A stretch of DNA of 64,000 bases from Leptolyngbyaceae cyanobacterium (lineage in GTDB: Bacteria > Cyanobacteriota > Cyanobacteriia > Phormidesmidales > Phormidesmidaceae). The number at the start of each line of letters is the position of its first letter. Within the stretch, counting starts at the first letter, position 1. This document shows positions 14,586 to 46,735 of this stretch, piece after piece. The stretch spans positions 1 to 64,000 of the forward strand of contig CBDHHL010000031.1 in NCBI GenBank assembly GCA_965263355.1, written 5' to 3'. The notes beneath the pieces were generated by a model. It had not been told where the DNA came from and did not search any database. It was given only the letters and a program-made list of their open reading frames with translations. A program made the position numbers and the translations under genes.

Positions 14586-14590
14586 AAAAA

Positions 14591-20976: not shown

Positions 20977-22882
20977 GCAACGTGCATTAGCTGAAAGGGA
21001 GAGGCGCAGGCGACGAAGAGAGCGTGAGCGTGAGGGACAAGTAACGGAGGCTCAAAGCTACTATACGACTGGCGAGCAGTTTATAGAAGCCGTTAAATCA
21101 TTTGGCTGCAATGAGAACGGAGATCCGATTCGTTTAAGGCCATGGTTTATTGAATATCTAAAATGGTTGGGAGAATTACGAATTCCTAAGAAAGCTATCA
21201 GTGGCGCTCAGCAGTCTGGCAAGTCGTTAGGATGCACGTTGTTTTTAGCCTATGCGGTACAGGAACTAGGCTTAAAAATGATTTATTCTTATGATTCTCA
21301 GGCGGCTCGTAACTCTCAGGTGACTTTGAACCTTAGGCCGATTCTGAATGCTTGGGAGGAGGCCAAAGAATTGAATGGAAATAATTTAGACCGCAACACC
21401 GAGATATGGAAATCATTATCAGGCGGTTTTGCTAAATATGTTTATTCGAGTGTTAATCGCAATGTAGGGCAGAGAAAGGGCTTAGCGGCTGCTGGCGGTG
21501 TTAACGTGGGCTTCCAGGCCGATGGGTTGATTGACGAAGAACGTTCTCAGTCGCCGCCGGGTGCAAGAGATGCTTTTTATAGACGATTAGCTGAGTCTAA
21601 ACTTAAGCCATATCCACCGCATATCAATCTAGGAACACCGGGGGGTGGGTTAGGGATTGAGTTAGATTTTCAGCAATACGATCATCATTTTTATCCGTTT
21701 TATAAATGTCCTGAATGTGGCGCTGTTAAACCCCTTCATCCAAAAGGATGCTTATTAAAACCGGTGACGTTGTTTGAGCGTGGGGAAGAAATACAACGGT
21801 GGTTTTCACCATCGGGCAAGCCGTTAGAATGGTGGCATTCAGACCCAAACAAAATAGAATCGTCTGCCTATATTGGATGTTCTGAATGTGGGGCTAAGTT
21901 GCCTGACGAAGTGAGGATCGGGGCTTGGTTCCAGGGAGTAAGGTTTAATATTAAATTTGATATTGAGTCAGTAAAAGATATTACGTTGTCTCAGTTTCTC
22001 CAAGGGTTACCTGATGGCGAGCCAAAAGAGCAGATTAGTAGTGCGTTGATTATTTCGCCATTGCTCAGGGATTCAGATACAGCAGCGACAATGATACGCC
22101 AGTTGCTTGGGTCCAAAGATATTGCTGATGCACATCAACAGGTGCTGGGTATCCCGTCAGAAGCAGGCAGCGGGGTCATTACAGAAGAGATGATCCAACG
22201 ATGCATCGAACTACCTATCCCTGAACGTGAGCCTGATTGTGTAGTTGCAGGGGGAGATCAGGGAGTTAATCAAGACTGGCTATGGGTAGCTAGATGCTGG
22301 TTACCCAGTGGCTATGGTCAAATGTTGTCGTCTGAGATTGCGGATAAGACGGTGATGGAGGTTGTTTTTTACGGACCAATCCAGCGTTCAGAGGTAGGGG
22401 CGATTATCCAAAAATATAATATTGATGCTATTGCCTATGACTCTAAGCCTGAGGTTGCTGACGGCATCGCGCTAGCCCGCAACCATGGCGTGTTCTTAGG
22501 AAAGCAAATGAGTTTGCCAGAGTATGACATTAGGTCAGAGAATAAAATTCACGATGGTGAGAATTATTGTTTGTATAGTTTTAGACAAGAAGACTTCCAA
22601 GACCAGGTAGCCGCGTCGTTTGATTTGATTGCCTCAGATGGGTATCCGTTATGGAGGCTACCAGAGAGTTTCCATAAATGGTTGCAGCTAAGGAATGATG
22701 AGCGCTCACCTGTTAGGCACCTATGCGCAATGCAAAAAGATGGGGAGCTGGGTAAATGGGTCAGACCGGATGATCATGTTGACGATCAGTTTTTCGCGGC
22801 CATGTTTTTGAAATTAGCCTTTAGGTTATGGTTGGATGAGAAGAATACAAGTGTTTTTGTTGTAGGCAGGGCTAAATGGTAA
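20963..22882 (+). CDS. terL: Terminase large subunit (lambda GpA-like)
   Basis: Walker A-like GAQQSGKS, LIDE Walker B, GTP motif, CPECG/CSECG Zn-finger, nuclease GGDQG and DDQFFA. Confidence 0.88.
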   Translation: MVTLRQRALAERERRRRRREREREGQVTEAQSYYTTGEQFIEAVKSFGCNENGDPIRLRPWFIEYLKWLGELRIPKKAISGAQQSGKSLGCTLFLAYAVQELGLKMIYSYDSQAARNSQVTLNLRPILNAWEEAKELNGNNLDRNTEIWKSLSGGFAKYVYSSVNRNVGQRKGLAAAGGVNVGFQADGLIDEERSQSPPGARDAFYRRLAESKLKPYPPHINLGTPGGGLGIELDFQQYDHHFYPFYKCPECGAVKPLHPKGCLLKPVTLFERGEEIQRWFSPSGKPLEWWHSDPNKIESSAYIGCSECGAKLPDEVRIGAWFQGVRFNIKFDIESVKDITLSQFLQGLPDGEPKEQISSALIISPLLRDSDTAATMIRQLLGSKDIADAHQQVLGIPSEAGSGVITEEMIQRCIELPIPEREPDCVVAGGDQGVNQDWLWVARCWLPSGYGQMLSSEIADKTVMEVVFYGPIQRSEVGAIIQKYNIDAIAYDSKPEVADGIALARNHGVFLGKQMSLPEYDIRSENKIHDGENYCLYSFRQEDFQDQVAASFDLIASDGYPLWRLPESFHKWLQLRNDERSPVRHLCAMQKDGELGKWVRPDDHVDDQFFAAMFLKLAFRLWLDEKNTSVFVVGRAKW

Positions 22883-35184: not shown

Positions 35185-36624
35185 ATGCCTATCATCAGAC
35201 GACAAACCCCAACCTCATCCACGGATACACTCGCAGCCACGGCACAAGATCGCACGGTGGTTACAGCCACGGGTAGCGCTGCTGCGATCTCTGCGATATC
35301 TGCTACCTATCCAGCGACAGCCAATAACGGCAATACGCTGATAATTGCAGCAACAGATCGAGATTATGTAGTCAGCAGTAATGGAACGATCTGGACAATT
35401 GAAGCAGACCCAACTACAGACGGACAGAGGCGTTATGTTGTAAATAATGAAAGCGTCACTACCCGAACATTTGCAAGTTGGAGCGCAGAAGATAACAGAT
35501 GGCATTCTGACGCGTTTACTGCAAACGAGGTTCCTGATTCCCAAGAGGACAAACTGGCGGCACTTTTGCCAGAGATTCCTAGCGGGTATGATCCAGCTTT
35601 AGCAGGCGGCTATCTCACGGGAGATCAGGTTTTTCAAGGAGGTACGCTTTACACGGCAAATAAAGCGAGTCTTGACCCACCGGGGCCTTTTGCGGCGGCA
35701 GATTGGGACACGTTTGTTACTGAGGACGACGGAAAAGAAATCACTCAACAGCTGGACGGTGCAACGCTGGGCTATGCGTCCATTGGTTATCTGCAGAACG
35801 GGGGGACTTACCCACTGACGACAAATATAAATACAGCTAAAAAAGTTGACGCGATTATCCCTCCAAACAGCGCTGTTACCGTCGACGGAACACTTTACAC
35901 AAACGCAAGCTTAACTGAATCTCAAGGGCTGAAGTTATACAACGATGGGACAGGCTGGGTTAGGGAATCGGCAGGCGCTGAAGTCCCATCGAGCAGCCTC
36001 AGCTTCCAAGGACTGACATCGTTTTTCCAGTGGACTGGGAATGTGACTTTGGGCACATCGGGGACTGAATCTCCCATCAGCATGGGCAATGGGACAGCGG
36101 TTGACCTGTCTCTAGCTACCCATGCCCTTTTTACCTATAAGGCGTTTCTATCGGCTAACAATCCCTATCTCTTTAGTGATTTTCAGGATCTTACTGCAGA
36201 TCCCAGTACCCCATATCTATCGTTGGTCTATAACAACGGGCATATAGACGTGGAGTACGACCGTGCGGAAACCGATCTCTCGGTGGGAGATATCATTTTC
36301 AGGCGAGGGGGATCTTATCAGGTAGTTTTAGTAAAGGCCGAGTTTTTCACACTGATTGAGACCGGATTAACAGCCCCTACTACCCATATAATCTCTTTAG
36401 ACCAAGCAGGAAGCGTTAAAACGTTTCTAAACGGTCAGACCTTTGTTAATCTCTATGATATGAAATTCGCTGAAATAGCGGTAACCCTGGACCCTGGCTT
36501 CAGATTAGCGTTATCAAACCCTAACCCGGCTCCGGGAGTGACTATACGAGATTATGACTTAGGGATAATTAGCGTTGTCACTGCCTCAGATAGAACCATT
36601 AGGCTAGAGCAGGAAGCAATATAA
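35185..36624 (+). CDS. Fibre/structural protein with CBM5/12-like motif
   Basis: YLTGDQVFQGGTLYTA.....PPG.....DW. Confidence 0.55.
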   Translation: MPIIRRQTPTSSTDTLAATAQDRTVVTATGSAAAISAISATYPATANNGNTLIIAATDRDYVVSSNGTIWTIEADPTTDGQRRYVVNNESVTTRTFASWSAEDNRWHSDAFTANEVPDSQEDKLAALLPEIPSGYDPALAGGYLTGDQVFQGGTLYTANKASLDPPGPFAAADWDTFVTEDDGKEITQQLDGATLGYASIGYLQNGGTYPLTTNINTAKKVDAIIPPNSAVTVDGTLYTNASLTESQGLKLYNDGTGWVRESAGAEVPSSSLSFQGLTSFFQWTGNVTLGTSGTESPISMGNGTAVDLSLATHALFTYKAFLSANNPYLFSDFQDLTADPSTPYLSLVYNNGHIDVEYDRAETDLSVGDIIFRRGGSYQVVLVKAEFFTLIETGLTAPTTHIISLDQAGSVKTFLNGQTFVNLYDMKFAEIAVTLDPGFRLALSNPNPAPGVTIRDYDLGIISVVTASDRTIRLEQEAI

Positions 36625-38619
36625 ATGGGCATCATTCGCTATCTTCAAGGCCTCGCAGAGTATCCTAATCTCAGTGAATCCGATGTTGCTCAAGCCCATG
36701 TCTATCATGCATTTGATCAGTCTGCAGATTCCGCTATAGAGTATAACCTACAATTAAATAACATAGGGGTTGATGTCTCGGTAACTGCTATACAGTTTAA
36801 TCCAGGAGATTCTAGCGGACTTAAACCAATTATTTCTCCCTATGCGATATCGCATATTTATTCTCCGGGCACGTACTATCCGTCTTATGTGATTACGTTA
36901 TCCGATGGATCTAGCTTCACTCAGCCGTTACCGGTGCTGAAGATCGAGGCCCGGACTGAGCTTTTCTTATTCGAGGCAGCCGGAAGCTTTTCCTTCACAA
37001 CGCCTACCTATCCTTATAGCCATATGTCGATATACGGGGCAGGCGGAGGTGGGGGCGGCGGCGGCGGCCAGTTTAACACGTTCTCTTTTGCTATTCTCTC
37101 AGGTGGCGGAGGTGGCGGGGGTGGCGCTGCTTTTGAGCTTGTACGTTGGCCCTACGGGACTGATTTAAGGGGCCAAAGTGTTACCGGCTCTGTAGGGTCT
37201 GGGGGAAGCGCGGGAACCGGGGGCGACGGGGGTCCTACTCCAGGGGGCAGCGGGAGAAGCACTATTATTAATGCCTGGGGTAACTTTCCGAGGATCGTTG
37301 CTCGCGGTGGCTCTGGGGGGCAACATGCTGGCCTAACAAACCCTCAAGGGGGAGCCGGTGGCCAGGTCACCGAGGGGTTCGCCTCACTAGTCACTATTCC
37401 CGGTGGTAGGGGCGGCAATGGCGCTAGGGGGGTAGCTAACACTAACAACACTCCTGGCAATGGGGAGTCTCAAGGGGGCCCTGCTGGCGGAGGTGGCGGG
37501 GGTCACTCATCGGGAAACTTATTTCCGGCTAACGTTGCAACCGGGGCATCCGGTTTTAATAGTGCTCAGGAGATAACGCAAGACAACCCGAGAGTCTATG
37601 GCGATGGGGGCGATGGGGGCAATGCTCGATTGTTCTTGAGGGCTCAATCAGGAGAATTAAGAGGAGCCGGGGGAGGTGGTGGCCCAGGAGCACCGGGCAA
37701 TACGGGTATCTCTCCCAGGGGAGGATCGGGGGCTAGAGGATACGTCTTTTTTGTTTTTGAGGATCTGAGCCTAAGTGCTCCAGCGACAGCTGATGAGATC
37801 ATACTATTTAACACTCCAGGGTCATTCAGTTTCACAGTGCCGATCAACATTTATAGCGAATTTAGACTATATGCCTCGGCTCCCGGTGGCGGAGGTGGCG
37901 GCGGCGCTCAAAGTGACTATAGTAACGGTAAATCCGGTGGCGGAGGTGGCGGATCGGGAGATCATTTAGAACTGGTGCAGGCGTTTCCGCTATCACTGCA
38001 AGGGCAAACGATAACCGGGACTATCGGCAATCCTGGCATCGGTGGGACTGCAAACTCTAACGGTTCCTCGGGAGGTCAGGTAACCATAGATGCTGTAGGA
38101 CCTTTTGACGCTATAACACTTAGGGGCGGTGTTGGGGGTGGTGCTGGCCAGATCTCCACCGTAGATACTGTAGATGTAGCCGGAGGCCTAGGTGGACCAG
38201 GGGGCAACGGCAGCTCTAGTATTCCTGGCATCGTCTATCGTAATGGTGCACAAGGGGGCGACGGTGCTAGTGCGTTACCTAATGGACAGCTGGGGGCTAC
38301 TCAATCTCAAGGGGGCACAAATAACGGGGGGCCTGGATCTGGCAGTGGGGGCGGATCAGCCAGCGGGGGGACCGGTCCAACGGCGTTTGGTATTCCCGGT
38401 GGTGGCGCAGGCAATGGCGTCGTTACCCCTGATAAAGATAACCCTAATGCCTTTGGAACCGGGGGTAAGGGGGGCAACTTTGGAGGTACTACGAATCCGG
38501 CTAGTGATGGCTCAGGACCAGGCTCTGGCGGAGGGGGCGGCACTGGCTCGGATGGTACTGTAGATGCGTCAGGAGGTAACGGCGGCCAGGGCTATGTCCT
38601 CATTGTTCTAGTTGCTTAA
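36625..38619 (+). CDS. Glycine-rich fibre protein (two glycine-rich domains)
   Basis: Two GSFSFT.P...GGGGGGG...GG.G..GYV repeats. Confidence 0.75.
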   Translation: MGIIRYLQGLAEYPNLSESDVAQAHVYHAFDQSADSAIEYNLQLNNIGVDVSVTAIQFNPGDSSGLKPIISPYAISHIYSPGTYYPSYVITLSDGSSFTQPLPVLKIEARTELFLFEAAGSFSFTTPTYPYSHMSIYGAGGGGGGGGGQFNTFSFAILSGGGGGGGGAAFELVRWPYGTDLRGQSVTGSVGSGGSAGTGGDGGPTPGGSGRSTIINAWGNFPRIVARGGSGGQHAGLTNPQGGAGGQVTEGFASLVTIPGGRGGNGARGVANTNNTPGNGESQGGPAGGGGGGHSSGNLFPANVATGASGFNSAQEITQDNPRVYGDGGDGGNARLFLRAQSGELRGAGGGGGPGAPGNTGISPRGGSGARGYVFFVFEDLSLSAPATADEIILFNTPGSFSFTVPINIYSEFRLYASAPGGGGGGGAQSDYSNGKSGGGGGGSGDHLELVQAFPLSLQGQTITGTIGNPGIGGTANSNGSSGGQVTIDAVGPFDAITLRGGVGGGAGQISTVDTVDVAGGLGGPGGNGSSSIPGIVYRNGAQGGDGASALPNGQLGATQSQGGTNNGGPGSGSGGGSASGGTGPTAFGIPGGGAGNGVVTPDKDNPNAFGTGGKGGNFGGTTNPASDGSGPGSGGGGGTGSDGTVDASGGNGGQGYVLIVLVA

Positions 38620-38686
38620 TCTTCTGTAAAACAGGGTGCTGTAAGAATAGAGAGACTATGGATTATTGAACTGAAAATGGTTTAAT

Positions 38687-39433
38687 TTGATGCCTGACGC
38701 AGCGTTAGCAAGAGCTGGATTTGAATTCAATCCTGATCCCGTCATCTTTGGGAATTCACAACGCAAAATAGTCCTTGCTAACCCAGCAGCGGCTAGACTT
38801 TTTGAGTACGAAAATCCAACGGCAATGGTTGGCTTGAAAGTCTACAGTTTGGTTCCTGAATCTCTTATATCAGAAAGCGCTCATGACAGAATGTATGACG
38901 CGTTTCTACGTGGGCAGAGGACCCGTGATATGGGTTCTGAAGCTCCGCTATTTGGCAAAACACGAATGGGACGACAGATCCCTATCTGGCTACGACTATT
39001 TATTGTCAATCACGAAGGTGAAACCTATGTAGGCGAAGTCGTTCGAGACCGCACAGAATATTTACGCCAAGAAGAACAAATAAAGGAGCAAGAGCAACAA
39101 GAGCGAGATTTGATCTTGCAATTGGAGAAATCCAATAAAGAACTGAAAGCGTCCAACAAGGATATGCAAGTTCAATTGCGCCAGTCTGAGCTACAAGAAC
39201 TTGTCGTTAAGTGGCTGATCTATGCGGGTGTTTTTTTCTATCTGACCCCATTTTTATTAAGTATTTTTAGGCGAGTGCCAACGGAACTGATGTCTTTTGG
39301 CAGAGACGCTACGATCCTAGTAATCGGGGCGCTCGTTAATGCAACCGGTGCAGCTGTTGGGATTGTATCAAAGGCTAAGGACATGGCTAATGAAAAGTCA
39401 ATAGATAGCAAAACTCCTAATGCGAAACGATAG
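38687..39433 (+). CDS. PAS domain + coiled coil + two TM helices
   Basis: NPDPVIF...IVLANPAAARLFEY...MVGLKVYSLVP...GKTRMGRQIPI...VRDRTE. Confidence 0.85.
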   Translation: MMPDAALARAGFEFNPDPVIFGNSQRKIVLANPAAARLFEYENPTAMVGLKVYSLVPESLISESAHDRMYDAFLRGQRTRDMGSEAPLFGKTRMGRQIPIWLRLFIVNHEGETYVGEVVRDRTEYLRQEEQIKEQEQQERDLILQLEKSNKELKASNKDMQVQLRQSELQELVVKWLIYAGVFFYLTPFLLSIFRRVPTELMSFGRDATILVIGALVNATGAAVGIVSKAKDMANEKSIDSKTPNAKR

Positions 39434-40055
39434 AGCATTGTTTCCATTCCTTAGAACACAATTAGGTCGGGCGTTCATAATCGCATCGATTGGGTTATTT
39501 TTCGGCCTAGTTCTTTTCTGGACGAGTCATACTCAGTTTAGCGAGGCTTGCTTGCAAATCAAAACGCCTGGTTCTATAGCACAGGGGATAGCCCGAGGTC
39601 TTATATATCAGCAAAGTATTGAGGACGTAATAACCTCCATGGGCGATAGGCTGAACGCTCAATGGGTAGGGTCATTTTTGTACGACGAGGACCAACGTCG
39701 ACGTTTTAGTTTTGCGATCGCACGGATCGGAGTGCCTGTGTCCGCAACATATGGATGGCTGGACATCCAGCAAGAGGACATATATCTAGAGCAACTTGAT
39801 TATCATAAGTTAGGTCAATGCTGGGTTAAGCCTACTCAGGATCTCCCAGAAGGCCTATTGAAGCAGCAACTTGAGCCTAATAATATCCAGCTAACTATTT
39901 CTTGCCCCATACTGGCTCAAAATGGCGATATATTTGGGTATGTAGCCTTTGGCTTCGACCGGGTCATGGCAAACAAAGAGACCGTTGCGGAGTCTATTAG
40001 GGCAAGTCCTATCTTTGCGTTTGATGCTAGTAATGCAGGATTTTTCGGGAGCTAA
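39420..40055 (+). CDS. Single-TM + GAF-domain protein
   Basis: TM at about aa 17-34; LNAQWV...DLPEGLLKQQLE.NNI..TISCPI...NG.IFGYV. Confidence 0.7.
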   Translation: MRNDRALFPFLRTQLGRAFIIASIGLFFGLVLFWTSHTQFSEACLQIKTPGSIAQGIARGLIYQQSIEDVITSMGDRLNAQWVGSFLYDEDQRRRFSFAIARIGVPVSATYGWLDIQQEDIYLEQLDYHKLGQCWVKPTQDLPEGLLKQQLEPNNIQLTISCPILAQNGDIFGYVAFGFDRVMANKETVAESIRASPIFAFDASNAGFFGS

Positions 40056-40060
40056 TTTCA

Positions 40061-41218
40061 ATGAGATACATCATCGAGACATCAGATCAATTTCAAAATG
40101 CACTCAAAGTTGTTGAGGCAAGCGATCGTATCCTGCTAAAGTCTGGCGTTTATCAACATGAAGAGTACAACACTTCATGGGAAACACGAACACGTGGAAA
40201 TGCTTTTTTTGCCAGCGGGCTAAAAGGAACAGCCGAAGATCCAATTAGGATAATGCCGTTTGGGGATGGCCCTGTGACTATACTTTCTGACGTGAATGGT
40301 TTAGCGATAAAAGATTCTAAGTATATTATTATCGAGGGCATAGAGTTTGTAGGGCCGAATTCAAACCTGAGTGCTGAGCAAGCTTTAGAGGTCTGGTGGA
40401 ACGAAAACCCTATAATGATAACGGGCAGAGGAATTGCCTTAAATCGTTGCAGCAATATCGATATAACAAGATGCCGAGTGCATCATTTCCCAGGGGCGGG
40501 AATATCCAGCAAGCACGGTTACGATATCAGCATTTACGATAACGCTATCTATAACAATTGCTGGTTCTCAATATCAGGATCGCATGGTATCGCGAATAGC
40601 GAGCCTAAAGGGCCTAGCGGATCTTCAATGAAGATCTACCGTAACCTGGTTTTTGGGAACCAATGCTGTGTTATATCAAGGGTATTTTCCAAGGGTTATG
40701 TCACTTTGGCCTTAGATGAAGGGAACGGCATTCACTTTCAGAATGATGAGAAGATGTATAGGGGCGGGCTGCTGATAAAAGAGAACATTAGCGTGTTCAA
40801 CGGGAAGGCAGGAATAGGCCTTAATAGAGTGTCGACAAACCAGCTAGACTCAGCCATCATAAAAGATAATCTGCTAGCTGGTAATTGTATAACAACAGAC
40901 TCAGGGCAGCTTAGTGAGCGAGAAAGTCAAGTCTCTTTTATCCGTAACATATTGGGCGGTGAACCTTACGTTAAGAGCATAGGGCTCTCTGCAAGCGATT
41001 ACGCTAGCAATATCAAGGCACCTGAGTTCACTAGTCTATCGGATTTACTTCCTCCCGAAGGAACAGATCTTAGGGATACTTTCACCAATATTCTGTCTCA
41101 GTTTAGTATGTTCGTTGCGCCTTGCGACCAGGAGATAAACTTGGAAAGCATGATTAAAACGATAAAAGATACTCAGCCAGCGGATATGGCGCATATAGAG
41201 TTTATAGAGCATTGCTGA
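40061..41218 (+). CDS. Right-handed parallel beta-helix protein (pectate-lyase-like; possible depolymerase)
   Basis: DRILLKSGVY, GTAEDPIRI, repeated I.I.dN.I.NN and G.GI motifs. Confidence 0.8.
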   Translation: MRYIIETSDQFQNALKVVEASDRILLKSGVYQHEEYNTSWETRTRGNAFFASGLKGTAEDPIRIMPFGDGPVTILSDVNGLAIKDSKYIIIEGIEFVGPNSNLSAEQALEVWWNENPIMITGRGIALNRCSNIDITRCRVHHFPGAGISSKHGYDISIYDNAIYNNCWFSISGSHGIANSEPKGPSGSSMKIYRNLVFGNQCCVISRVFSKGYVTLALDEGNGIHFQNDEKMYRGGLLIKENISVFNGKAGIGLNRVSTNQLDSAIIKDNLLAGNCITTDSGQLSERESQVSFIRNILGGEPYVKSIGLSASDYASNIKAPEFTSLSDLLPPEGTDLRDTFTNILSQFSMFVAPCDQEINLESMIKTIKDTQPADMAHIEFIEHC

Positions 41219-41974
41219 GTTTCAGTCCCTTAGCAGAAATTAAAGCTTTAGCAGCCGGTGAGCCTTACGTTAAGAGCATAGGGTTCTCGTTTCAGTCCCT
41301 TAGCAGAAATTAAAGCTTTAGCAGCCTTCATCTAAGGCCATGGTTGCGAAGCCCTTAGAAAAGTTTCAGTCCCTTAGCAGGGATTAAAGTTTTAGCAGCA
41401 GTTTGCTCCTCTACTGTTTCAGTCCCTTAGCAGGGATTAAAGCTTTAGTAGCTTCCCTGGAATCCCGCTAGCTCAGTGTGTAGAGAGTGTTTCAGTCCCT
41501 TAGCAGGGATTAAAACTTTAGCAGCGCTCGCACTTCAGCAAGTAAAGCGGGATATGGCCGTTTCAGTCCCTTAGCAGGGATTAAAGCTTTAGCAGCTTTA
41601 CACGCCCGCGTTAAAATTGGTAGGGCATACGAGTTTCAGTCTCTTGTTTCAGCCCCTTAGCAGGGATTAAAGCTTTAGCAGCCAGCGTCGGGATTACGCC
41701 CACTGACAGACAACAGGTTTCAGTCCCTTAGCAGGGATTAAAGCTTTAGCAGCTATTACAGCAGGGCACTGTCAGACCGCATCGGCAACTCAGTTTCAGT
41801 CCCTTAGCAGGGATTAAAGCTTTAGCAGCTTTTTGGACTTCTAACGCCCTTGTTCTAGCCTAGTGTTTCAGTCCCTTAACAGGGATTAAAGCTTTGGCAG
41901 CCCGTGCCTCTGCATACTCCTGCCGCTCGTGAGCAAAGTTTCAGTCCCTTAACAGGGATTAAAGCTTTGGCAGC
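41219..41974 (-). CRISPR. CRISPR array: 11 full 37-nt repeats, one 13-nt truncated repeat, 10 spacers
   Basis: Plus-strand consensus GTTTCAGTCCCTTAGCAGGGATTAAAGCTTTAGCAGC starting at 41219, 41289, 41363, 41416, 41489, 41560, 41646, 41717, 41793, 41865, 41938; spacers 33-39 nt except one of 16 nt; minus strand ends TGAAAC and degenerate repeats sit at the 41219 end. Confidence 0.98.
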
Positions 41975-42045
41975 TGCATGAGCTGCATCCCTTTAGCTGC
42001 AAGGCTTTTATGAGCGATTCTGGCAAAGCTCAGAAAATGGCAATC

Positions 42046-42068
42046 CTGCCAAAGCTTTAATCCCTGTT
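42046..42068 (-). repeat. 23-nt anti-repeat in leader
   Basis: CTGCCAAAGCTTTAATCCCTGTT is an exact inverted copy of part of repeats 10-11. Confidence 0.9.
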
Positions 42069-42104
42069 TTTCAAGGTTCTTCTTTTGGCTTCGCTTAGCT
42101 TTGC

Positions 42105-42297
42105 CAAAAAAAAGATGAGACTGTTCGCCATAGATCCGGCGAATCTATAAGGGCCTCACGGACTCCTTTTGCTCCTATCTTGCCTTTCGGCTGGTGTTTG
42201 CCAGTTTCCCAGCAAAAGATGCCCATAGCCCCCTAAAGAGCCTTAGCGCTGAAGCCATCCAACAACGTTTCCGCTGCCTTGTCGCCCAAACTGCGAT
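42105..42297 (-). ncRNA. Candidate tracrRNA
   Basis: Downstream of TTGACG-N18-TAATAT; several GNRA-capped hairpins; CAGUCUC and UUCAG segments complementary to the repeat 3' end; ends in U8. Confidence 0.6.
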
Positions 42298-42303
42298 GTC
42301 CTT

Positions 42304-42333
42304 ATATTAGCGTGCTATGATTTTGTACGTCAA
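42304..42333 (-). promoter_or_regulatory. sigma70 promoter for tracrRNA/array
   Basis: -35 TTGACG (42333..42328), -10 TAATAT (42309..42304). Confidence 0.6.
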
Positions 42334-42349
42334 GCATTTTTTAATATAA

Positions 42350-42526
42350 ATGGGGAAAGAGAATAGAGAAGGCAGGATTTACGCCCGCATCAAGCAAAGT
42401 CGCAAACAAAAGCTAGAGCAATATTGTAAGCTTTGGAATATATCGATCGCTGACCTATTGGAACGCTTTATTGATATGCTGCCAGAACTCCCGAAAATAG
42501 ACGCACAAAACAATGAAGACAATTAA
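42350..42526 (+). CDS. Ribbon-helix-helix regulator upstream of cas12, not in ORF track
   Basis: MGKENREGRIYARIKQSRKQKLEQYCKLWNISIADLLERFIDMLPELPKIDAQNNEDN (58 aa); overlaps the cas12 start. Confidence 0.7.
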   Translation: MGKENREGRIYARIKQSRKQKLEQYCKLWNISIADLLERFIDMLPELPKIDAQNNEDN

Positions 42527-44288
42527 AGTAAAAGTTCAGCCAACTCCGGAGACACTAATTAAATACGAGAAAATTTGCAAAGAACTTGAATGGCTATGGA
42601 ACTATGTGAGGGCCGTAGCCTTACATAATCATTGCCTTGAATGGTATGAATGGGCCGAGGGGAAAGGCGCTGATGTGCTTGAATGGCCTCTCTGGGCCAA
42701 AGAAAAAGGCGCTGACTTGTCAGGCTGCATTAAAACGCCATTGCGCTTTTCGAAAAGTGGCGGATGGATTGGAGCAGCTTGTCAGATTGCTAAAGGAGGG
42801 CCATATTTTAAGAAATCAGATAAAGCTCCTTTGATTCACTATGGCGATGGCAAAACGAAACAAGGCTATGAATTAGTGGCTGGGGATAAGCCATATGAGC
42901 CAATAAAGCCAAAGCGTCATAGATATCGCGAAGTCTCTTATTCCAGTAAAGGCACCTCAATAACCCGTTCCAGTAAAAGCACCTCAATAACCCGCGAGCT
43001 AAAAGGAAAAGGTTGGGGCCTAGACAATATGGCGTTACTAAATGCGTCACGAAGTTCTCAGGGTCTTGATGAATTAACTTGCCATAGCGATTTTGTTGGA
43101 GGGCTACTAGCTGACTTTGAAGTTGCTTGGAAGGCTTATTTAGACGGGAAACTGCTCGCCAGAAAGCAGCCAAAGTATAAGGACGGCAAGCAACGTAAAA
43201 TTAGCACGTTGAACAATAATCAAAAAACTATCCCGTTCAAAAAAGGACAATTCAACGGTCAAGGCTTAGTTTTAGAGCCGTGCGATCGCAGCTATAAAAA
43301 AAGGCTTGAAGGCTACGTAACAAAAACTTATAAGTTGACATTAAAGCCGAGCGGCTTCTATTTATGCTTAATTGCTCAAAGTGAAGCAGAAGTAGAACAT
43401 AGAGCAAAACTTAATAATCAAGGGAAAGTTTTAAGCGCCATCAAGAAAAAAGTTCTTGATAGCATTAAAGGGAAGAAAGAACAAACTAAGGCATTAGCTA
43501 ACAGTGAAGAATATCAAGCGGCATTAGCCAAGAAAAAGTCAATAGAGAATGAGTTGCCATACTTGCTAATAGAAGACTCAAAATGCGCTAAACGAACCGG
43601 GCATATGGCGGGCATTGACCCTGGGATTAAGGCAATTGTAGCGACTGACGAAGGTCATTTATTTAATCCTAACGAAAGCCGAGAACGCATACAAAATCAT
43701 ATTGAAAAGCTGCAATCAAAGCTTGATATTATGACTGAAAAAAATGATAAGCGGCTAGACCAAATATGGAAGCGTGGGCAGCGTGAAGCCACTAATAACG
43801 AGCAAAAACTTAGAGATAAAATATCCAGGCTGCATGAACGAGCTGCTAATAGTTCAAACGCGTTTAATCATAAGTTATCAACCAGGTTAGCAAGAACTTA
43901 TGATGTCATCGCCTGGGAGGCTACGGCGTTAACTAACATGGGGAGACAGACAACGCCTAAATTAGCTGAAGATGGAAGTTATTACGAGCAAAACGGCAGA
44001 GCAGCTAAGGCAGGATTGAATAGATCTTTGAAAACAGCTTGCATGGGAGATCTTAGAGCTAAGACAAAATCTAAATTAAAAGAAGCCAGGAAAACATATA
44101 CAGAAGCCGAAGCTAGATACTCCTCCCAACGCTGTCATTGTTGTGGGGAGAAAGGCATTAGACCTATTCAAGATACGTTTATTTGTTTGAATAAACAATG
44201 TGATTTATTCAATGAAAAACAAAACGCAGACACTAACGCTGCTAAGAACCACAAGAACAATGGCTTGAAGATGCTTAAAGCTAGTTGA
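42513..44288 (+). CDS. cas12: Compact type V CRISPR effector (TnpB-derived Cas12, V-U/Cas12f-like)
   Basis: 591 aa; RuvC-I GIDPG, RuvC-II IAWE, CHCC...C....C Zn finger, RuvC-III NADTNAA; adjacent array and anti-repeat; no tnpA. Confidence 0.85.
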   Translation: MKTIKVKVQPTPETLIKYEKICKELEWLWNYVRAVALHNHCLEWYEWAEGKGADVLEWPLWAKEKGADLSGCIKTPLRFSKSGGWIGAACQIAKGGPYFKKSDKAPLIHYGDGKTKQGYELVAGDKPYEPIKPKRHRYREVSYSSKGTSITRSSKSTSITRELKGKGWGLDNMALLNASRSSQGLDELTCHSDFVGGLLADFEVAWKAYLDGKLLARKQPKYKDGKQRKISTLNNNQKTIPFKKGQFNGQGLVLEPCDRSYKKRLEGYVTKTYKLTLKPSGFYLCLIAQSEAEVEHRAKLNNQGKVLSAIKKKVLDSIKGKKEQTKALANSEEYQAALAKKKSIENELPYLLIEDSKCAKRTGHMAGIDPGIKAIVATDEGHLFNPNESRERIQNHIEKLQSKLDIMTEKNDKRLDQIWKRGQREATNNEQKLRDKISRLHERAANSSNAFNHKLSTRLARTYDVIAWEATALTNMGRQTTPKLAEDGSYYEQNGRAAKAGLNRSLKTACMGDLRAKTKSKLKEARKTYTEAEARYSSQRCHCCGEKGIRPIQDTFICLNKQCDLFNEKQNADTNAAKNHKNNGLKMLKAS

Positions 44289-44377
44289 GCATCAGTAGAA
44301 ATGCTATGATTGGCAGCAGCTGACAGTATTGGAAGTGCTGACAGCTGCTTAACCACAATTTAGAAAAGGGCTAAACT

Positions 44378-45463
44378 ATGGCTTACGAATATATTACTAC
44401 TGACAGGACCAGCTCGGTTTCTTTGGGCAGTAGGCTAGAAAAACCCGTATCTAACCTAAAAGCTAAGTGCAGCAATATAATTGCCGAACAGATATTACGC
44501 AGCACCTTTTTTAGGCCACATTTCGAAGATGAACTAATAGAGTACGGAGAATCTTTGTGTTACGAGATAGCAACACGGGTGCTTGATGGAGAGCTGTTAA
44601 CACTTAAAGTCACTCTTGACAATGGTGATTGCGGAAATTACGAACTAATCACAAAAACGCCAAAAGAATTTATAAAGGCTCGTAAACGAGATCTAAGTAA
44701 ATGGGAAGACTTGCATGTCCTTTCAAACGATCCTGAAATTGTCCGATTAGCCAAGCGGGAAATAGATAATATCAATTGTTGCTTGAAATTAAATACTAAC
44801 TCTAAGCTTCAGTCAGCATCTAAGCTTCTGCGTACAGGCTTCCTGAAGTTAGAAATAGAAGATTACTTTGTCGAGCAAAGATTAAATGTGTGGGATGAAA
44901 ATATAAATTTTGCTTGCTGCACTTTGATTCCTCTTTATATTCCTGACCTATTAAATCTTGTAGAGGGTCTAACTATTCAAGACCATCTGAGAAATAGCTT
45001 CGAGGGCAATAAAAATGAAGTCTTGACGAGCTACGAAAGCGACACTTCACCGTGTCAGAGGGAAGGAAATTCTTTAGGGGTAAACCCTAGACTGCCAGTA
45101 ACAATCAAGAAAAAGAAAAAGCCCAAAAAACTAGAACGTGATTTAGAGGCAGAACTACTTTACTGGCTCGATCAAAAAGATGTGATGGCAGAACAGCAAG
45201 TGTCTTCACGAGGTAGACGAACCGATATATGGATACCTGGCAAGTGTTTTCTTGAACTTAAACGGCAAAAAGTAACAGGTGAAGATGTTTGTCAAGCAGC
45301 TAAATATTTTGCACTATACTCTCGTCAAATTATTTTAGTTGGAGAGACATTAAGCACAAGGGCCGGTGAAGGCATCGCAGCTATGAACGCGATAGCAGGT
45401 GAAAACGCTTTATCCTTTGTGACTTGGAGCGCCATTTATTCATATCTGGAAGTGTTTCTGTGA
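44378..45463 (+). CDS. Protein with C-terminal PD-(D/E)xK nuclease domain
   Basis: E...L...RTDIWIPGKCFLELK...VCQAAKY. Confidence 0.6.
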   Translation: MAYEYITTDRTSSVSLGSRLEKPVSNLKAKCSNIIAEQILRSTFFRPHFEDELIEYGESLCYEIATRVLDGELLTLKVTLDNGDCGNYELITKTPKEFIKARKRDLSKWEDLHVLSNDPEIVRLAKREIDNINCCLKLNTNSKLQSASKLLRTGFLKLEIEDYFVEQRLNVWDENINFACCTLIPLYIPDLLNLVEGLTIQDHLRNSFEGNKNEVLTSYESDTSPCQREGNSLGVNPRLPVTIKKKKKPKKLERDLEAELLYWLDQKDVMAEQQVSSRGRRTDIWIPGKCFLELKRQKVTGEDVCQAAKYFALYSRQIILVGETLSTRAGEGIAAMNAIAGENALSFVTWSAIYSYLEVFL

Positions 45464-45498
45464 AAACGCACTGTTTATATGCCGTTTGGAATTGAAAA

Positions 45499-45918
45499 AT
45501 GAACTTAATCACTAAATTTGATGCTGCTTATAAAGGCGTAAACCAGCCGATGCCAGACCTCGACGCCTATATTTCAGGCGATGAATCAAAGCAGCAAACA
45601 ACAGACTTTAGCTTATTTGAATTGCCTGAATCTGTAGCACTAGAAATGCTGAATGCAGAAGAGACTTATTGGGGGCATTACGGCTGGTTTGATGCCTGCA
45701 TGGATGCAATTTATCAGTTAGCCAGTGATGGCGAATATGCCAAAGCACAACAACATGCACAATGGCTTTTTGCCCGTAAACCTCAAGGTCTCGAAAAAAT
45801 GCCAGGGTATTCAAAGCTAACTAAATATATCGATGGGATATTCCCTACAGATGAATTCGAAAAACGCAATGCTATGGCACAGATGCTCAAAACACGCATA
45901 TTCGAAGAGGAGGAGTAA
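45499..45918 (+). CDS. Hypothetical protein
   Basis: 139-aa ORF. Confidence 0.55.
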   Translation: MNLITKFDAAYKGVNQPMPDLDAYISGDESKQQTTDFSLFELPESVALEMLNAEETYWGHYGWFDACMDAIYQLASDGEYAKAQQHAQWLFARKPQGLEKMPGYSKLTKYIDGIFPTDEFEKRNAMAQMLKTRIFEEEE

Positions 45919-45923
45919 TTGTC

Positions 45924-46412
45924 ATGAATAAGCCAGATTTAATTGTTTGCATCCCTGACATGGATCGAATCCCTGACGAGCATTACAACGAAGCTCAGGA
46001 CATGACTTGTGTTTTAGTAGATTACAGCGGCAATTCAAAAATTAAAAACGGACGACGCATGGGGACTGAAAAGAAAATAGACCCTGACAGCGTAGATCCT
46101 AGGTTCCCCGGCGCACCTACTCATCAACGTTTGGGACCATGGCTAATTGATGATGAGTATGAAGAATATATTCCTGATATTCCTATGGTCAATGATGACT
46201 ATGTAGAATATATTCCTGCTATCCCTACTCACGCATACAATGCAGTCTATACGTTTAAGTTTAGCTATGCCCCATTGCCAGATAAAGAGAACCCATGGGT
46301 AAAAATCGAGCGGACGCAAGACTTGAGCAATCTTCCAAGGCAAGTTTTGCTTAATATGGGCTTGTCAGAAGAACAAATTGATTCGGGCGTGTTAGAGCAG
46401 TTTAAGCTTTAG
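45924..46412 (+). CDS. Hypothetical protein
   Basis: 162-aa ORF with GAGGAG RBS. Confidence 0.55.
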   Translation: MNKPDLIVCIPDMDRIPDEHYNEAQDMTCVLVDYSGNSKIKNGRRMGTEKKIDPDSVDPRFPGAPTHQRLGPWLIDDEYEEYIPDIPMVNDDYVEYIPAIPTHAYNAVYTFKFSYAPLPDKENPWVKIERTQDLSNLPRQVLLNMGLSEEQIDSGVLEQFKL

Positions 46413-46425
46413 AGCTTAGCGCCAT

Positions 46426-46475
46426 AAAACAAAAAACCTCGCTAATCAAGAAAAGGTTAGCGAGGTTTTTTGTTT
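46426..46475. terminator. Bidirectional intrinsic terminator
   Basis: AAACAAAAAACCTCGCTAA...TTAGCGAGGTTTTTTGTTT between convergent genes. Confidence 0.85.
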
Positions 46476-46735
46476 TATGCTGCCTTAACTTTACGTTCAG
46501 CGCGAATTTCTTTTTTATATCGCTTACAAAATACCCCGTTAAACTTACGAAGAGAGTTAAATGCATTGCCATAAGCGATTTTAGCTTCCTGCCAACCGAC
46601 CATGGCCTTTGTAGATGCAGGTGTTAGCCCATTGGCTTCTCTTGGATATTCGTTAAGTTTTTTGCTAGCTGCTTTTACTTGTTCCTCTAGAACGTTTTTA
46701 GCGGCTTTGTCAATGCAATAGTTGCCAGTCAACAT
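46475..46735 (-). CDS. Hypothetical protein
   Basis: 86 aa with its own repeated promoter. Confidence 0.55.
   Translation of the reverse strand: MLTGNYCIDKAAKNVLEEQVKAASKKLNEYPREANGLTPASTKAMVGWQEAKIAYGNAFNSLRKFNGVFCKRYKKEIRAERKVKAA

What the first reader, a model, noticed from the sequence alone, without database searches (positions are those of the whole stretch)
40685..41362. The two oldest CRISPR spacers target alleles of the gene the array abuts: candidate CRISPR-guided homing or inter-phage competition
Seen: the first repeat starts at 41219, the base after the TGA of the beta-helix gene (40061..41218). Spacer 41256..41288 matches 40957..40989 at 31/33 nt (GAA/GAG synonymous, CTC/TTC Leu/Phe). 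The reverse complement of spacer 41326..41362 matches 40685..40721 at 29/37 nt and translates FSKGFATMALDE versus the resident FSKGYVTLALDE, so it came from a diverged homologue of the same gene. Both are at the leader-distal (oldest) end. Inference: the locus cuts cognate alleles of the flanking gene in related phages, a few hundred bp from its own insertion point. This could drive spread of the cassette by recombinational repair (as for free-standing homing endonucleases or TnpB-mediated transposon retention) or exclude competitors, while the resident allele has escaped.
Basis: partly seen in the sequence, partly recalled or inferred. Interest (0 to 1): 0.92.

Follow-up and report, generated by a model that had tools for sequence, protein, structure and literature searches.

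The report
Phage CRISPR guides against neighbour-gene alleles
A phage that carries its own small CRISPR nuclease (Cas12p) keeps two old guides copied from other natural versions of the tail gene lying right beside the guide array, while its own version of that gene is altered exactly where the nuclease would need to grip, which fits warfare between sibling phages and revives an open question about why such targets sit next to viral CRISPR arrays.

Summary
An 11-repeat array (41219-41974) starts one base after the TGA of a beta-helix gene. Its two end spacers match that gene at 31/33 and 29/37 nt; shuffles reach at most 22 and 24.

The nuclease is a Cas12p (PDB 9jfs, E 1.9e-110). tracrRNA, repeat polarity and PAM show that crRNAs are made from the minus strand, so both spacers sit at the trailer (oldest) end.

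Database alleles explain both guides. Spacer 2 encodes FSKGFATMALDE, exact in four divergent alleles, behind a Val-codon GTN PAM. Spacer 1 encodes ...SIGFS, found in two alleles reading SIGFSTS, whose Thr codon would supply the GTN PAM. The resident reads SIGLSAS, which gives PAM GCA plus a mismatch at guide position 5.

Related Cas12p phages also target siblings: 6 of 7 targets carry GTN, and two lie in the rival cas12p gene.

Best reading: allele-discriminating interviral guides. Homing is possible but untested, and the flank bias in relatives is weak.

Target proximity to virus-borne arrays is already in print as unexplained (PMC6858448). This scan noted similar cases on other DNA. I rate it a new member of a known kind, of moderate interest.

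The parts
40061..41218 (+). Right-handed beta-helix gene (385 aa), the last gene of the tail module. Its alleles are the source of spacers 1 and 2.
   Evidence: ORF. Pfam Beta_helix E 8.3e-07. The homologues fall into one resident-type allele cluster and three divergent ones.
40682..40721 (+). Resident counterpart of the spacer-2 target: PAM GTA (40682-40684, the Val codon of SRV|FSKG) followed by a 37-nt site matched at 29/37.
   Evidence: Mismatches fall at guide positions 6, 12, 14, 15, 17, 18, 21 and 22. The RV motif is present in all 17 alleles that carry the site.
40957..40992 (-). Resident counterpart of the spacer-1 target (40957-40989, matched 31/33), plus its PAM position (40990-40992), which reads GCA on the minus strand.
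   Evidence: Mismatches fall at guide positions 5 and 27. Alleles P0071 and P0075 read SIGFSTS, where the resident reads SIGLSAS.
41219..41974 (-). CRISPR array of 11 repeats of 37 nt and 10 spacers, transcribed right to left. In crRNA sense the repeat is GCTGCTAAAGCTTTAATCCCTGCTAAGGGACTGAAAC.
   Evidence: Polarity comes from relatives' repeats, which end ...GAAAC co-directional with cas12p; from the published AAAC:GUUU pairing; and from the PAM side.
41256..41288 (-). Spacer 1, the trailer-most spacer. It is flanked by the two variant repeats R1 and R2.
41326..41362 (-). Spacer 2, second from the trailer end.
41975..42037 (-). Leader between the tracrRNA terminator and the first-transcribed repeat; this is the acquisition end of the array.
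   Evidence: Some population contigs lack spacers 9 and 10 (joint 41829->41979), and others hold alternative spacers.
42031..42297 (-). Predicted tracrRNA. Its 5' end reads AUCGCAGUUUGG (G7-U10 = GUUU). The anti-repeat lies at about 42045-42068, and a hairpin plus T-run terminator at 42051-42031.
   Evidence: Alignment with the cas12p-array intergenic regions of 5 relatives shows an invariant CGCAGTTTGG. Promoter TTGACG-18-TAATAT at 42333-42304 and a terminator-like site at 42051-42038. The ends are predicted, not mapped.
42350..42526 (+). 58-aa ORF overlapping the cas12p start by 14 nt. It looks like a ribbon-helix-helix protein by eye; no family hit.
   Evidence: Sequence. No Pfam, PHROG, NCBIfam or PADLOC hit. 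No homologue next to cas12p in the relatives.
42513..44288 (+). cas12p (591 aa) with the RuvC D369/E469/D573 triad and the zinc-ribbon cysteines conserved.
   Evidence: PDB 9jfs Cas12p, E 1.9e-110. PADLOC Cas12u2 E 2.3e-52. NCBIfam C2c8 at 171 bits, below its cut-off of 350. Invariant columns.
44378..45463 (+). 361-aa ORF of unknown function just downstream of cas12p. It is variable cargo, present in a minority of the population.
   Evidence: Depth is 14.7-27.6 here against about 100-460 in the flanks, and loose ends occur at 44358/44383 and 45903.

Best explanation
The window is a tailed-phage genome, probably a cyanophage, that carries a complete CRISPR-Cas12p system.

Layout. The tracrRNA-leader-array unit is inverted relative to its relatives and is transcribed divergently from an RHH-like ORF plus cas12p. 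As a result, the trailer end of the array touches the stop codon of the last tail-module gene, a beta-helix protein.

The two trailer spacers are allele-discriminating guides against sibling phages' versions of that gene.
- Spacer 2 was copied from the divergent allele class. Its peptide is an exact match there, and the GTN PAM comes from a conserved Val codon.
- Spacer 1 was copied from a close sibling allele reading ...SIGFSTS.... The Thr codon of that allele would supply the GTN PAM on the target strand.
- The carrier's own allele reads ...SIGLSAS.... This removes the PAM (GCA) and puts a mismatch at guide position 5, so the carrier is spared.

Inferred function. In a co-infected cell, Cas12p would cut the rival genome in this gene (interviral exclusion).

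Why target and array are neighbours is not shown. My odds within this reading:
- About 40%: selection for linkage. In recombining phage populations, a guide survives only if it stays with the immune allele.
- About 40%: coincidence of two hot spots. Accessory cassettes land after tail genes, and tail genes are the most polymorphic.
- About 20%: proximity additionally lets cut-and-repair copy the cassette into the rival (homing-like).

Shown here: the anatomy, the family, the polarity, the allele matches, the PAM logic and sibling targeting in relatives. Inferred: cleavage, immunity of the resident allele, and any population effect.
For: Phage context:
- Terminase, portal, major head and tail proteins are present.

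Family:
- Cas12p, PDB 9jfs, E 1.9e-110.
- The catalytic D/E/D residues and the zinc-ribbon cysteines are invariant in 14 aligned homologues.

Polarity (crRNA made from the minus strand):
- Relatives' repeats end ...GAAAC, co-directional with cas12p, in 6 of 6 loci inspected.
- The published crRNA 3'-AAAC pairs with tracr G7-U10 (preprint 10.1101/2025.01.20.633832, passages and section 7 read).
- On the window's minus strand, a promoter is followed by AUCGCAGUUUGG, and CGCAGTTTGG is invariant in the 6-sequence alignment.

PAM:
- The published PAM is GTN, with GTA best.
- The spacer-2 site has GTA.
- Natural cross-phage targets of related arrays carry GTN in 6 of 7 cases.

Alleles:
- FSKGFATMALDE is exact in P0003, P0077, P0078 and P0079.
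- SIGFSTS occurs in P0071 and P0075.
- SIGLSAS occurs in the resident and in P0001, P0069, P0072, P0073 and P0074.
- No known allele carries both spacer peptides (0 of 17), so the two acquisitions had different sources.

Co-occurrence:
- One of the three runs that hold the phage (X3) also holds a divergent-class allele. Loose ends at 40068 and 40312 read MAK... and NSNHIYISDI by eye.

Relatives:
- 6 of 10 L012 spacers hit the complete phage G001.
- One L012 spacer and one G002 spacer hit the rival's cas12p gene at 33/33 and 36/36.

An active population:
- Contigs show alternative spacers, and some lack spacers 9 and 10.

Literature:
- Virus-borne arrays target close relatives, the carrier's orthologous site is mutated, and targets lie close to the arrays (PMC6858448, passages read).
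Against: - No nucleotide sequence of any target allele could be fetched. Perfect DNA-level matches to either spacer are therefore unverified, and 0 exact hits were found in IMG/VR.
- The repeat that would carry spacer 1 (R2), together with R1, differs from the other nine by two transitions. These keep G.U pairing with the anti-repeat (by eye), but processing and loading were not tested.
- The array shows decay: a 16-nt spacer and a partial repeat inside spacer 6. The old spacers may be relics.
- No adaptation genes were found among the 64 ORFs scanned.
- Both spacer-1-type alleles appear to sit on contigs that also carry a cas12p. Spacer 1 therefore aims at armed siblings, not naive ones.
- In the related G001 group, targets are spread over about 30 kb, and two perfect self-matches lie 35 and 51-57 kb from the arrays. 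Tight adjacency is not a family rule.
- The G002 spacer against cas12p has TTG, not GTN, at the PAM position.
Confidence: 0.68

Rival explanations
1. RNA-guided homing (a natural gene drive) is the main role. Cas12p cuts the neighbour-gene allele of a co-infecting relative. Recombinational repair from the carrier then copies the immune allele together with the adjacent array, tracrRNA and cas12p cassette.
For: - The targets lie 230-530 bp from the array end.
- The carrier's allele is immune by PAM and seed changes.
A hand-calculated Fisher test gives p of about 0.01; the cases are not independent.
- In relatives, two spacers hit the rival's cas12p gene, which is itself next to the array.
- cas12p sits on otherwise unrelated phage backbones: 0 of 11 window proteins have tblastn hits in 18 related sequences. 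The cassette therefore moves between phage lineages.
- A related note of this scan on other DNA describes a CRISPR-IscB terminal spacer matching the flanking gene. That note is unchecked.
Against: - No cassette-less 'empty site' was seen. No joint across 41218 to the far side of the cassette appears among the rows shown, and most rows were not shown.
- The C-terminal third of the gene is only about 30% identical between the allele classes. The right-hand homology arm would therefore have to lie beyond a heterologous block of at least 5 kb.
- Spacer-1 targets appear to carry a cassette already.
- Flank bias in relatives is weak: 4 of 10, hand binomial p of about 0.04, not independent.
- The linkage is equally explained by shared ancestry.
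Confidence: 0.15
2. The two spacers are functionless relics. They were acquired long ago, perhaps partly from the phage's own lineage, and are now blunted. They persist at the decaying trailer end, and their position next to the gene has no meaning.
For: - Trailer repeats R1 and R2 are variants; there is a 16-nt spacer 3 and a partial repeat inside spacer 6.
- The depth bin 41273-41569 is the lowest within the array.
- The relative G001 keeps two perfect self-matching spacers without a GTN PAM. Harmless own-lineage spacers therefore do occur in this family.
- Earlier unchecked notes of this scan say the same for other Cas12p phages.
Against: - The spacer-2 site has the optimal GTA PAM.
- The spacer-1 source alleles would supply a GTN PAM, and they still exist in current databases.
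- The two R1/R2 transitions keep pairing with the anti-repeat.
- Two independent sources hitting the one adjacent 1.16-kb gene within 63 kb is unlikely by chance. A hand estimate gives about 0.018 squared for this gene, and about 0.003 if either neighbour is allowed.
Confidence: 0.1
3. The array reached this site by recombination between a spacer in a donor array and its protospacer in the phage gene (spacer-mediated capture of a CRISPR locus). On this view, adjacency is a scar of that event.
For: - Spacer 1 and its near-match are direct repeats on the same strand, 299 bp apart.
- The tracr-array unit is inverted compared with all 6 relatives inspected, so a rearrangement did occur here.
- R1 and R2 share a variant absent from R3-R11, which fits a trailer unit of separate origin.
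Against: - A crossover at the spacer would join the spacer directly to gene sequence. Here the gene is intact to its stop codon, with the same C-terminus as homologues, and a full repeat plus 229 bp of gene lie between the two copies.
- Spacer 2 comes from a different allele class and lies on the opposite strand.
Confidence: 0.05
4. The partial matches serve self-regulation: crRNA-guided binding to the phage's own beta-helix gene without cutting.
For: A 31/33 match to the phage's own gene, with transcription of the array running antisense into that gene.
Against: - The spacer-1 site lacks the PAM that DNA binding needs, and the spacer-2 site has 6 mismatches within the first 20 guide positions.
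- The RuvC triad is intact.
- Both peptides match other natural alleles better than the resident one.
Confidence: 0.02

Closest known systems
CRISPR-Cas12p ('Cas12 hacker', type V-P). Sources: Wang et al., bioRxiv 10.1101/2025.01.20.633832 (passages and section 7 read); journal version cited in PMC13728456 (passage read); PDB 9jfs/9jg3.
   Same: - The effector is homologous over residues 1-584 (E 1.9e-110).
- 37-nt repeats.
- A long tracrRNA whose GUUU at positions 7-10 can pair with the repeat's 3' AAAC.
- A GTN PAM.
- Phage association, next to tail genes.
- Rival nucleic acids proposed as targets.
   Different: - The effector is about 50% identical only.
- The tracr-array unit is inverted and lies upstream, divergent from cas12p, instead of downstream.
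- The tracrRNA has an insertion of about 70 nt.
- A small RHH-like ORF overlaps the cas12p start.
- In the passages I read, the preprint does not analyse what native spacers match: its 3 uses of 'spacer', of which only 2 were among the passages shown, refer to engineered constructs.
- TrxA dependence was not testable here.
Virus-borne mini-CRISPR arrays in interviral conflict: portogloboviruses SPV1/SPV2 (Medvedeva et al. 2019, PMC6858448, passages read) and the phage mini-arrays of its reference 58 (not read).
   Same: - Spacers are aimed at closely related viruses of the same population.
- The carrier's orthologous site carries mutations that prevent self-targeting.
[quoted passage not shown]
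- The cited survey reported spacers against adjacent genes of related viruses.
   Different: - Those arrays have 1-2 spacers, no cas genes, and borrow the host's type I/III machinery.
- Here a bacterial virus brings its own type V effector and tracrRNA with a 10-spacer array.
- Here the protective changes can be read as PAM loss plus a seed mismatch.
Type V-U2 locus of cyanophage vB_AphaS-CL131 (PMC6293099, abstract and passages read) and the cas12p-like genes of Cylindrospermopsis phages MH636380 and OQ625504.
   Same: A TnpB-like type V effector plus an array of about 10 spacers on a cyanophage. These phage genes are 32-34% identical to the window's protein.
   Different: - The CL131 authors found one spacer match, to a cyanobacterial pseudogene, and no tracrRNA; they suggested a regulatory role.
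- They report no spacers against alleles of a neighbouring gene.
Free-standing homing endonucleases of T-even phages (marker exclusion) and TnpB/IscB-guided transposon retention.
   Same: - A nuclease gene sits beside a polymorphic gene.
- Relatives' alleles are cut, while the carrier's own allele is immune.
- Repair could co-convert the nuclease cassette.
   Different: - Here specificity would be carried by exchangeable RNA guides stored in an array.
- No cut, empty site or co-conversion gradient has been shown.

Membership tests
CRISPR-Cas12p (type V-P) | Effector homologous to the solved Cas12p chain over its full length | tested here: met
   phmmer against PDB: 9jfs_A, E 1.9e-110. Query residues 1-55 and 56-584 align.
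CRISPR-Cas12p (type V-P) | Intact RuvC D-E-D triad and C-terminal zinc ribbon | tested here: met
   D369, E469, D573 and C541/C544/C558/C563 are invariant in the 14-sequence alignment. GIDPG, WE and ADTNAA align with 9jfs.
CRISPR-Cas12p (type V-P) | 37-nt repeat whose 3' AAAC pairs with GUUU near the tracrRNA 5' end; long tracrRNA with an anti-repeat | tested here: met
   The repeat reverse complement ends CTGAAAC. The minus strand reads AUCGCAGUUUGG 7 nt after TAATAT. The anti-repeat at 42045-42068 is complementary to the repeat. A terminator-like hairpin follows. This rests on sequence only; no RNA data.
CRISPR-Cas12p (type V-P) | 5'-GTN PAM | tested here: met
   The spacer-2 site has GTA. 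6 of 7 cross-phage protospacers of related arrays have GTN. Cleavage was not assayed.
CRISPR-Cas12p (type V-P) | Activation by host thioredoxin | not testable with these tools
   The host is unknown; no complex prediction was run.
Virus-borne CRISPR arrays used in interviral conflict | Spacers match closely related viruses rather than the carrier | tested here: inconclusive
   Peptide-level exact matches exist in natural alleles: 4 for spacer 2 and 2 for spacer 1. Their DNA could not be fetched, and there were 0 exact hits in IMG/VR. The feature is met at DNA level in relatives (L012 against G001).
Virus-borne CRISPR arrays used in interviral conflict | The carrier's orthologous site is mutated so that self-targeting is avoided | tested here: met
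   Spacer-1 site: PAM GCA and a mismatch at guide position 5. Spacer-2 site: 8 mismatches.
Virus-borne CRISPR arrays used in interviral conflict | Exclusion of the rival shown in co-infection | not testable with these tools
   This needs isolates of the phages and the host.
Homing element / gene drive | Presence/absence polymorphism of the cassette at the same site in relatives that carry the cleavable allele | tested here: inconclusive
   Only contig-length linkage is available. cas12p is linked to 6 of 7 resident-class alleles and to 2 of 11 divergent-class alleles. No DNA and no empty-site joint were seen.
Homing element / gene drive | Nuclease cuts the cassette-less allele, and repair co-converts the cassette | not testable with these tools
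   This needs mixed-infection genetics.
TnpB/IscB-type guide that reads out of the element end | The guide is the DNA flanking the element end, and the target is recreated only in the empty site | tested here: inconclusive
   The terminal repeat R1 is followed directly by the antisense 3' end of the gene. In the carrier the PAM position there is the repeat's own AAC. What follows the stop codon in cassette-less relatives is unknown.

The most novel reading that the evidence does not exclude
The Cas12p cassette behaves as a natural RNA-guided gene drive among phages. Its guides are kept against alleles of the genes that flank the cassette: the tail gene here, and the rival's cas12p gene in relatives. 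A cut in a co-infecting sibling would then be repaired from the carrier, copying the immune allele and the whole CRISPR cassette into the rival. This would explain the unexplained proximity of targets to virus-borne arrays reported for archaeal and bacterial viruses.
Probability: 0.15. Interest if true: 0.9.

Novelty: new member of a known kind. Interest (0 to 1): 0.55.

Why it matters
This case gives an unusually readable example of virus-against-virus CRISPR use.

- The guide, the natural target alleles and the carrier's protective changes can all be named. The changes are one PAM base and one seed base, both amino-acid-changing.
- They concern a nuclease whose PAM and structure are already known, so the prediction can be tested at once by plasmid interference.
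- It extends to a self-sufficient type V phage system a pattern noted in print for cas-less mini-arrays: targets sit next to the array, for unknown reasons.
- Two testable explanations for that pattern follow from it. One is linkage of a guide with its immune allele. The other is homing-like co-conversion.
- If the second holds, phages would have evolved RNA-programmed gene drives.

Tried and rejected
Searches that found nothing useful:
- Exact spacers 1 and 2 in IMG/VR: 0 hits each. The window itself is not in that collection.
- GenBank phages: no blastn match to 38600-46500 and no tblastn match to the beta-helix protein.
- Beta-helix relatives in IMG/VR: none, with the single protein or with the alignment.
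- Beta-helix relatives in GTDB genome contigs: one irrelevant 30% hit over 98 residues.
- cas12p as a single protein in IMG/VR: none. The alignment was needed.
- No whole genome is held for the window.
- The look-up of sequencing runs: 3 runs from one study, and no RNA holder listed.
- The search of earlier findings by sequence: nothing.

Limits on what could be tested:
- Contigs of the window's own clade (ENA/NCBI) could not be fetched with any tool.
- The first spacer survey on +-10 kb loci was discarded as a test of flank bias, because its database held only flanks. It was redone on whole records.

Ideas considered and dropped:
- Tandem duplication of the gene's 3' end. Families D3 and D5 share a spacing of about 300 nt. 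However, homologues share the same C-terminus and length.
- Plus-strand crRNA, as implied by cas12p's own direction. This is contradicted.

Other negatives:
- No Cas1, Cas2 or Cas4 among the ORFs scanned (23 ORFs, 41; the sets overlap).
Full report
1. OBSERVATION

The ORF 40061-41218 (+) ends with a TGA at 41216-41218, and the first CRISPR repeat begins at 41219. The array has 11 repeats of 37 nt and 10 spacers and runs to 41974.

Spacer 41256-41288 equals 40957-40989 at 31 of 33 positions (family D3). The reverse complement of spacer 41326-41362 equals 40685-40721 at 29 of 37.

I scored every spacer against the whole window with the array masked, using 30 shuffles per spacer. The shuffles reached at most 22/33 and 24/37 for these two spacers. 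The other eight spacers did not exceed their shuffles.

In a six-frame BLOSUM62 comparison the two spacers score 48 and 50, against shuffle maxima of 35. Seven other spacers score 32 or less, and one was too short to test.

2. WHAT THE LOCUS IS

The window is phage-like. It holds a large terminase (20963-22882), a portal, a major head protein (PHROG 247, E 1.6e-82), a tape-measure protein and minor tail proteins. No tRNA was found. No whole genome is held for it.

The 591-aa protein at 42513-44288 matches the solved Cas12p chain 9jfs_A over nearly its whole length (E 1.9e-110). PADLOC calls it Cas12u2 (E 2.3e-52). NCBIfam gives C2c8 at 171 bits, below that model's cut-off of 350. The RuvC residues D369, E469 and D573 and four zinc-ribbon cysteines are invariant in an alignment of 14 homologues.

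I read passages and section 7 of the Cas12p preprint (10.1101/2025.01.20.633832). It describes:
- a phage-associated family of 500-700 aa;
- a 185-nt tracrRNA;
- 37-nt repeats;
- a pseudoknot between the last four repeat bases (AAAC) and tracrRNA G7-U10;
- a 5'-GTN PAM, with GTA best.

Homologues occur in cyanobacterial records and in isolated cyanophages, so a cyanobacterial host is likely. That is an inference.

3. STRAND, LEADER AND tracrRNA

In six related loci that I inspected, the array lies downstream of cas12p on the same strand, and the repeats end ...GAAAC. In the window the repeat ends CTGAAAC only on the minus strand.

The minus strand between 42349 and 41975 aligns with the cas12p-array intergenic regions of five relatives. 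The aligned features, in order:
- A promoter-like TTGACG-18-TAATAT (42333-42304).
- Seven bases later, AUCGCAGUUUGG. CGCAGTTTGG is invariant in the alignment, and G7-U10 reads GUUU, the same positions as in the paper.
- An anti-repeat at about 42045-42068.
- A hairpin with a T-run (42051-42031).

The tracrRNA, leader and array are thus one intact unit transcribed right to left. It diverges from an RHH-like 58-aa ORF and cas12p, and it is inverted compared with the relatives.

Population contigs from three runs of one study show forms that lack spacers 9 and 10 (joint 41829->41979). They also show alternative spacers. Both fit acquisition at the right-hand, leader end.

4. PAM LOGIC

In crRNA sense, the spacer-2 site in the resident gene is preceded by GTA. 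This is the Val codon of SRV|FSKG. The site carries eight mismatches, six of them within the first 20 guide positions.

The spacer-1 site is preceded by GCA. It has mismatches at guide positions 5 and 27.

As a control for the PAM in nature, I mapped the spacers of related arrays on whole records. Six of seven cross-phage targets carry GTN (GTA, GTG, GTA, GTG, GTG and GTA, with one ATA). Two perfect or near-perfect self-matches in phage G001 carry AGA and TGG.

5. NATURAL ALLELES

A search of the protein collection found four full-length allele clusters, and their members were then listed.

The spacer-2 peptide FSKGFATMALDE is exact in P0003, P0077, P0078 and P0079. Four further alleles differ only at the first residue, and two read FSKGYATMALDE.

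The spacer-1 peptide GEPYVKSIGFS is exact in P0071 and P0075, which continue ...FSTS. The resident (identical to P0072) and P0001, P0069, P0073 and P0074 read ...LSAS.

On the minus strand, the Thr codon (ACN) following the Ser codon reads GTN exactly at the PAM position. The resident's Ala codon (GCA) turns that into GCA. The Phe/Leu difference is the mismatch at guide position 5.

The resident therefore differs from the source allele at the two places that matter most for a type V effector. This is a reading of codons and proteins, because the alleles' DNA could not be fetched.

No known allele carries both spacer peptides (0 of 17). The two spacers therefore came from different sources.

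One run that holds the phage also holds a divergent-class allele. Its loose ends read MAK... and NSNHIYISDI by eye.

6. IS THE ADJACENCY MEANINGFUL?

Suppose two independent spacers each fall at random within 63 kb. The chance that both land in the 1.16-kb gene that touches the array is about 0.018 squared. It is about 0.003 if either neighbour is allowed. These are hand estimates.

This ignores one bias: only homologous-but-diverged genes can yield such spacers, and tail genes are typically the most polymorphic.

A hand-calculated Fisher test gives p of about 0.01, and the cases are not independent. Both spacer-1-type alleles are among the linked ones.

For relatives I first surveyed the +-10 kb loci (336 spacers in 34 arrays, including redundant loci). 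That database holds only flanks, so I fetched whole records. I then mapped 194 spacers (155 unique) from 19 arrays. Outside the window I found ten sibling or self relations, all on the complete 95-kb phage G001 or its fragment G002:
- Two lie inside the rival's cas12p gene: L012 spacer 4 at 33/33, and a G002 spacer at 36/36. The G002 spacer matches its own gene at 35/36, with the mismatch at guide position 6.
- Two lie 2.2 and 3.2 kb from the array.
- Four lie 6.7-15 kb away.
- Two are self-matches, 35 kb and 51-57 kb from the arrays.

Four of ten within 3.5 kb gives a hand binomial p of about 0.04, and the relations are not independent. There is thus a hint of local enrichment, including a second example of a guide against an allele of an array-adjacent gene. 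It is not a strict rule.

None of 11 window proteins, including terminase, portal and head protein, has a tblastn hit in these 18 related sequences. The cas12p cassette therefore sits on unrelated phage backbones.

7. MECHANISM

Best supported: the two trailer spacers are allele-discriminating guides for conflict between sibling phages. The carrier is protected by PAM loss plus a seed mismatch (spacer 1) and by divergence (spacer 2).

Three explanations for the proximity remain open:
- Linkage. A guide is safe only while it is inherited together with the immune allele, so old guides that survive recombination are those next to their immune allele. This is my inference.
- Coincidence of an accessory-gene hot spot with a polymorphic tail gene.
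- Homing-like co-conversion of the cassette after a cut. Nothing here shows this.

A geometry argument speaks against capture of the array by spacer-protospacer recombination. The gene is intact to its stop codon, and a full repeat plus 229 bp separate the two copies.

An unexplained detail: R1 and R2 are identical to each other and differ from the other nine repeats by the same two transitions. In crRNA sense these keep G.U pairing with the anti-repeat. This suggests either an ectopic insertion of spacer 1 at the trailer repeat, or a trailer unit of separate origin.

8. WHAT IS KNOWN

- Cas12p is a published, structurally solved family proposed to act against rival nucleic acids.
- Cyanophage CL131 was reported with a type V-U2 locus (PMC6293099).
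- For virus-borne mini-arrays, Medvedeva et al. 2019 (PMC6858448, passages read) report three things. Spacers are aimed at close relatives. Mutations in the carrier's orthologous loci prevent self-targeting. [quoted passage not shown]
- Those authors also cite a survey (not read here) in which phage mini-array spacers targeted adjacent genes of related viruses.
- A 2024 review (PMC11656645, passages read) summarises the inter-virus competition reading.
- My searches were 'Cas12p', 'vB_AphaS-CL131'+'CRISPR' and 'mini-CRISPR arrays'/'interviral conflicts'/'adjacent'. None turned up a paper that analyses native Cas12p spacers against neighbouring-gene alleles, or that proposes homing for them. 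The supplements of the bioRxiv preprint are closed and may list spacer matches.
- Earlier, unchecked notes of this scan describe similar things on other DNA: a Cas12p array with a spacer against a sibling's nuclease gene, own-lineage spacers blunted by one mismatch, and a CRISPR-IscB terminal spacer matching its flanking gene.

9. VERDICT

The homing half is neither supported nor excluded.

The case is a new member of known kinds: a Cas12p system, and virus-borne arrays aimed at relatives with array-proximal targets. Its guide/target/immune-allele triplet is unusually clear and directly testable.

Noticed in passing
window:11456-12727 (-): A 423-aa ORF with Pfam RRXRR (E 1.6e-69) plus HNH domains, and PHROG 2214 'HNH endonuclease' (E 5.9e-129). 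This is an IscB-like architecture inside the phage. No guide RNA was looked for.
   Followed up: no
window:53197-54411 (-): A full-length TnpB (OrfB_IS605, TNB and HTH domains; PHROG 506, E 1.1e-121). It is a second RNA-guided nuclease gene on the same phage, about 9 kb from cas12p.
   Followed up: no
window:44378-45463 (+): The 361-aa ORF after cas12p has roughly a tenth of the flanking contig depth in three runs. Other strains continue with different sequence at 44358/44383 and 45903. This is a variable cargo slot downstream of cas12p.
   Followed up: partly
window:42636-42715 and 42941-42994 (+), inside cas12p: Two in-frame tandem duplications within cas12p, of 42 nt and 27 nt (families D2 and D4). 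One run has a contig that skips 42 nt at 42657->42700, so the first duplication is polymorphic in the population.
   Followed up: no
window:41400-41415 and 41597-41645: Spacer 3 is only 16 nt long. Spacer 6 (49 nt) ends with a partial repeat, GTTTCAGTCTCTT. Both are signs of internal deletion or decay in the array.
   Followed up: no
window:41219-41325: Repeats R1 and R2 share two transitions that are absent from R3-R11. In crRNA sense the change is CCC->UUC, which still pairs with the anti-repeat's GGG by wobble. Simple leader-end acquisition would not produce this.
   Followed up: partly
G001 (IMG/VR record behind L019/L006): 71497-71529 -> 36438-36470, and 78047-78084 -> 20702-20739: A complete 95-kb Cas12p phage holds two spacers matching its own genome at 33/33 and 37/38. 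Both sites have non-GTN bases at the PAM position (AGA, TGG).
   Followed up: partly
L012:12245-13009 against G001: Six of the ten spacers of one Cas12p phage array hit a single rival phage between 56.5 and 86.9 kb, including its cas12p gene at 33/33. Five of the six sites have GTN PAMs.
   Followed up: yes
L004/L015/L016 (about 12155-14928): Two arrays with different repeat families lie back to back downstream of one cas12p. One is Cas12p-type, ending GTTGAAAC. The other resembles the repeats of the CL131-like V-U2 loci L021, L022, L026 and L029.
   Followed up: no
window:38687-39433 (+): A PAS-domain protein (PAS_9, E 4.7e-07) is encoded inside the tail-gene module, two genes upstream of the beta-helix gene.
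   Followed up: no
contig of 165,173 bases: One contig length is shared by a resident-class allele (P0075), a divergent-class allele (P0002) and a Cas12p (P0088). This is either a phage with two paralogous beta-helix genes or a chimeric or concatenated assembly.
   Followed up: no
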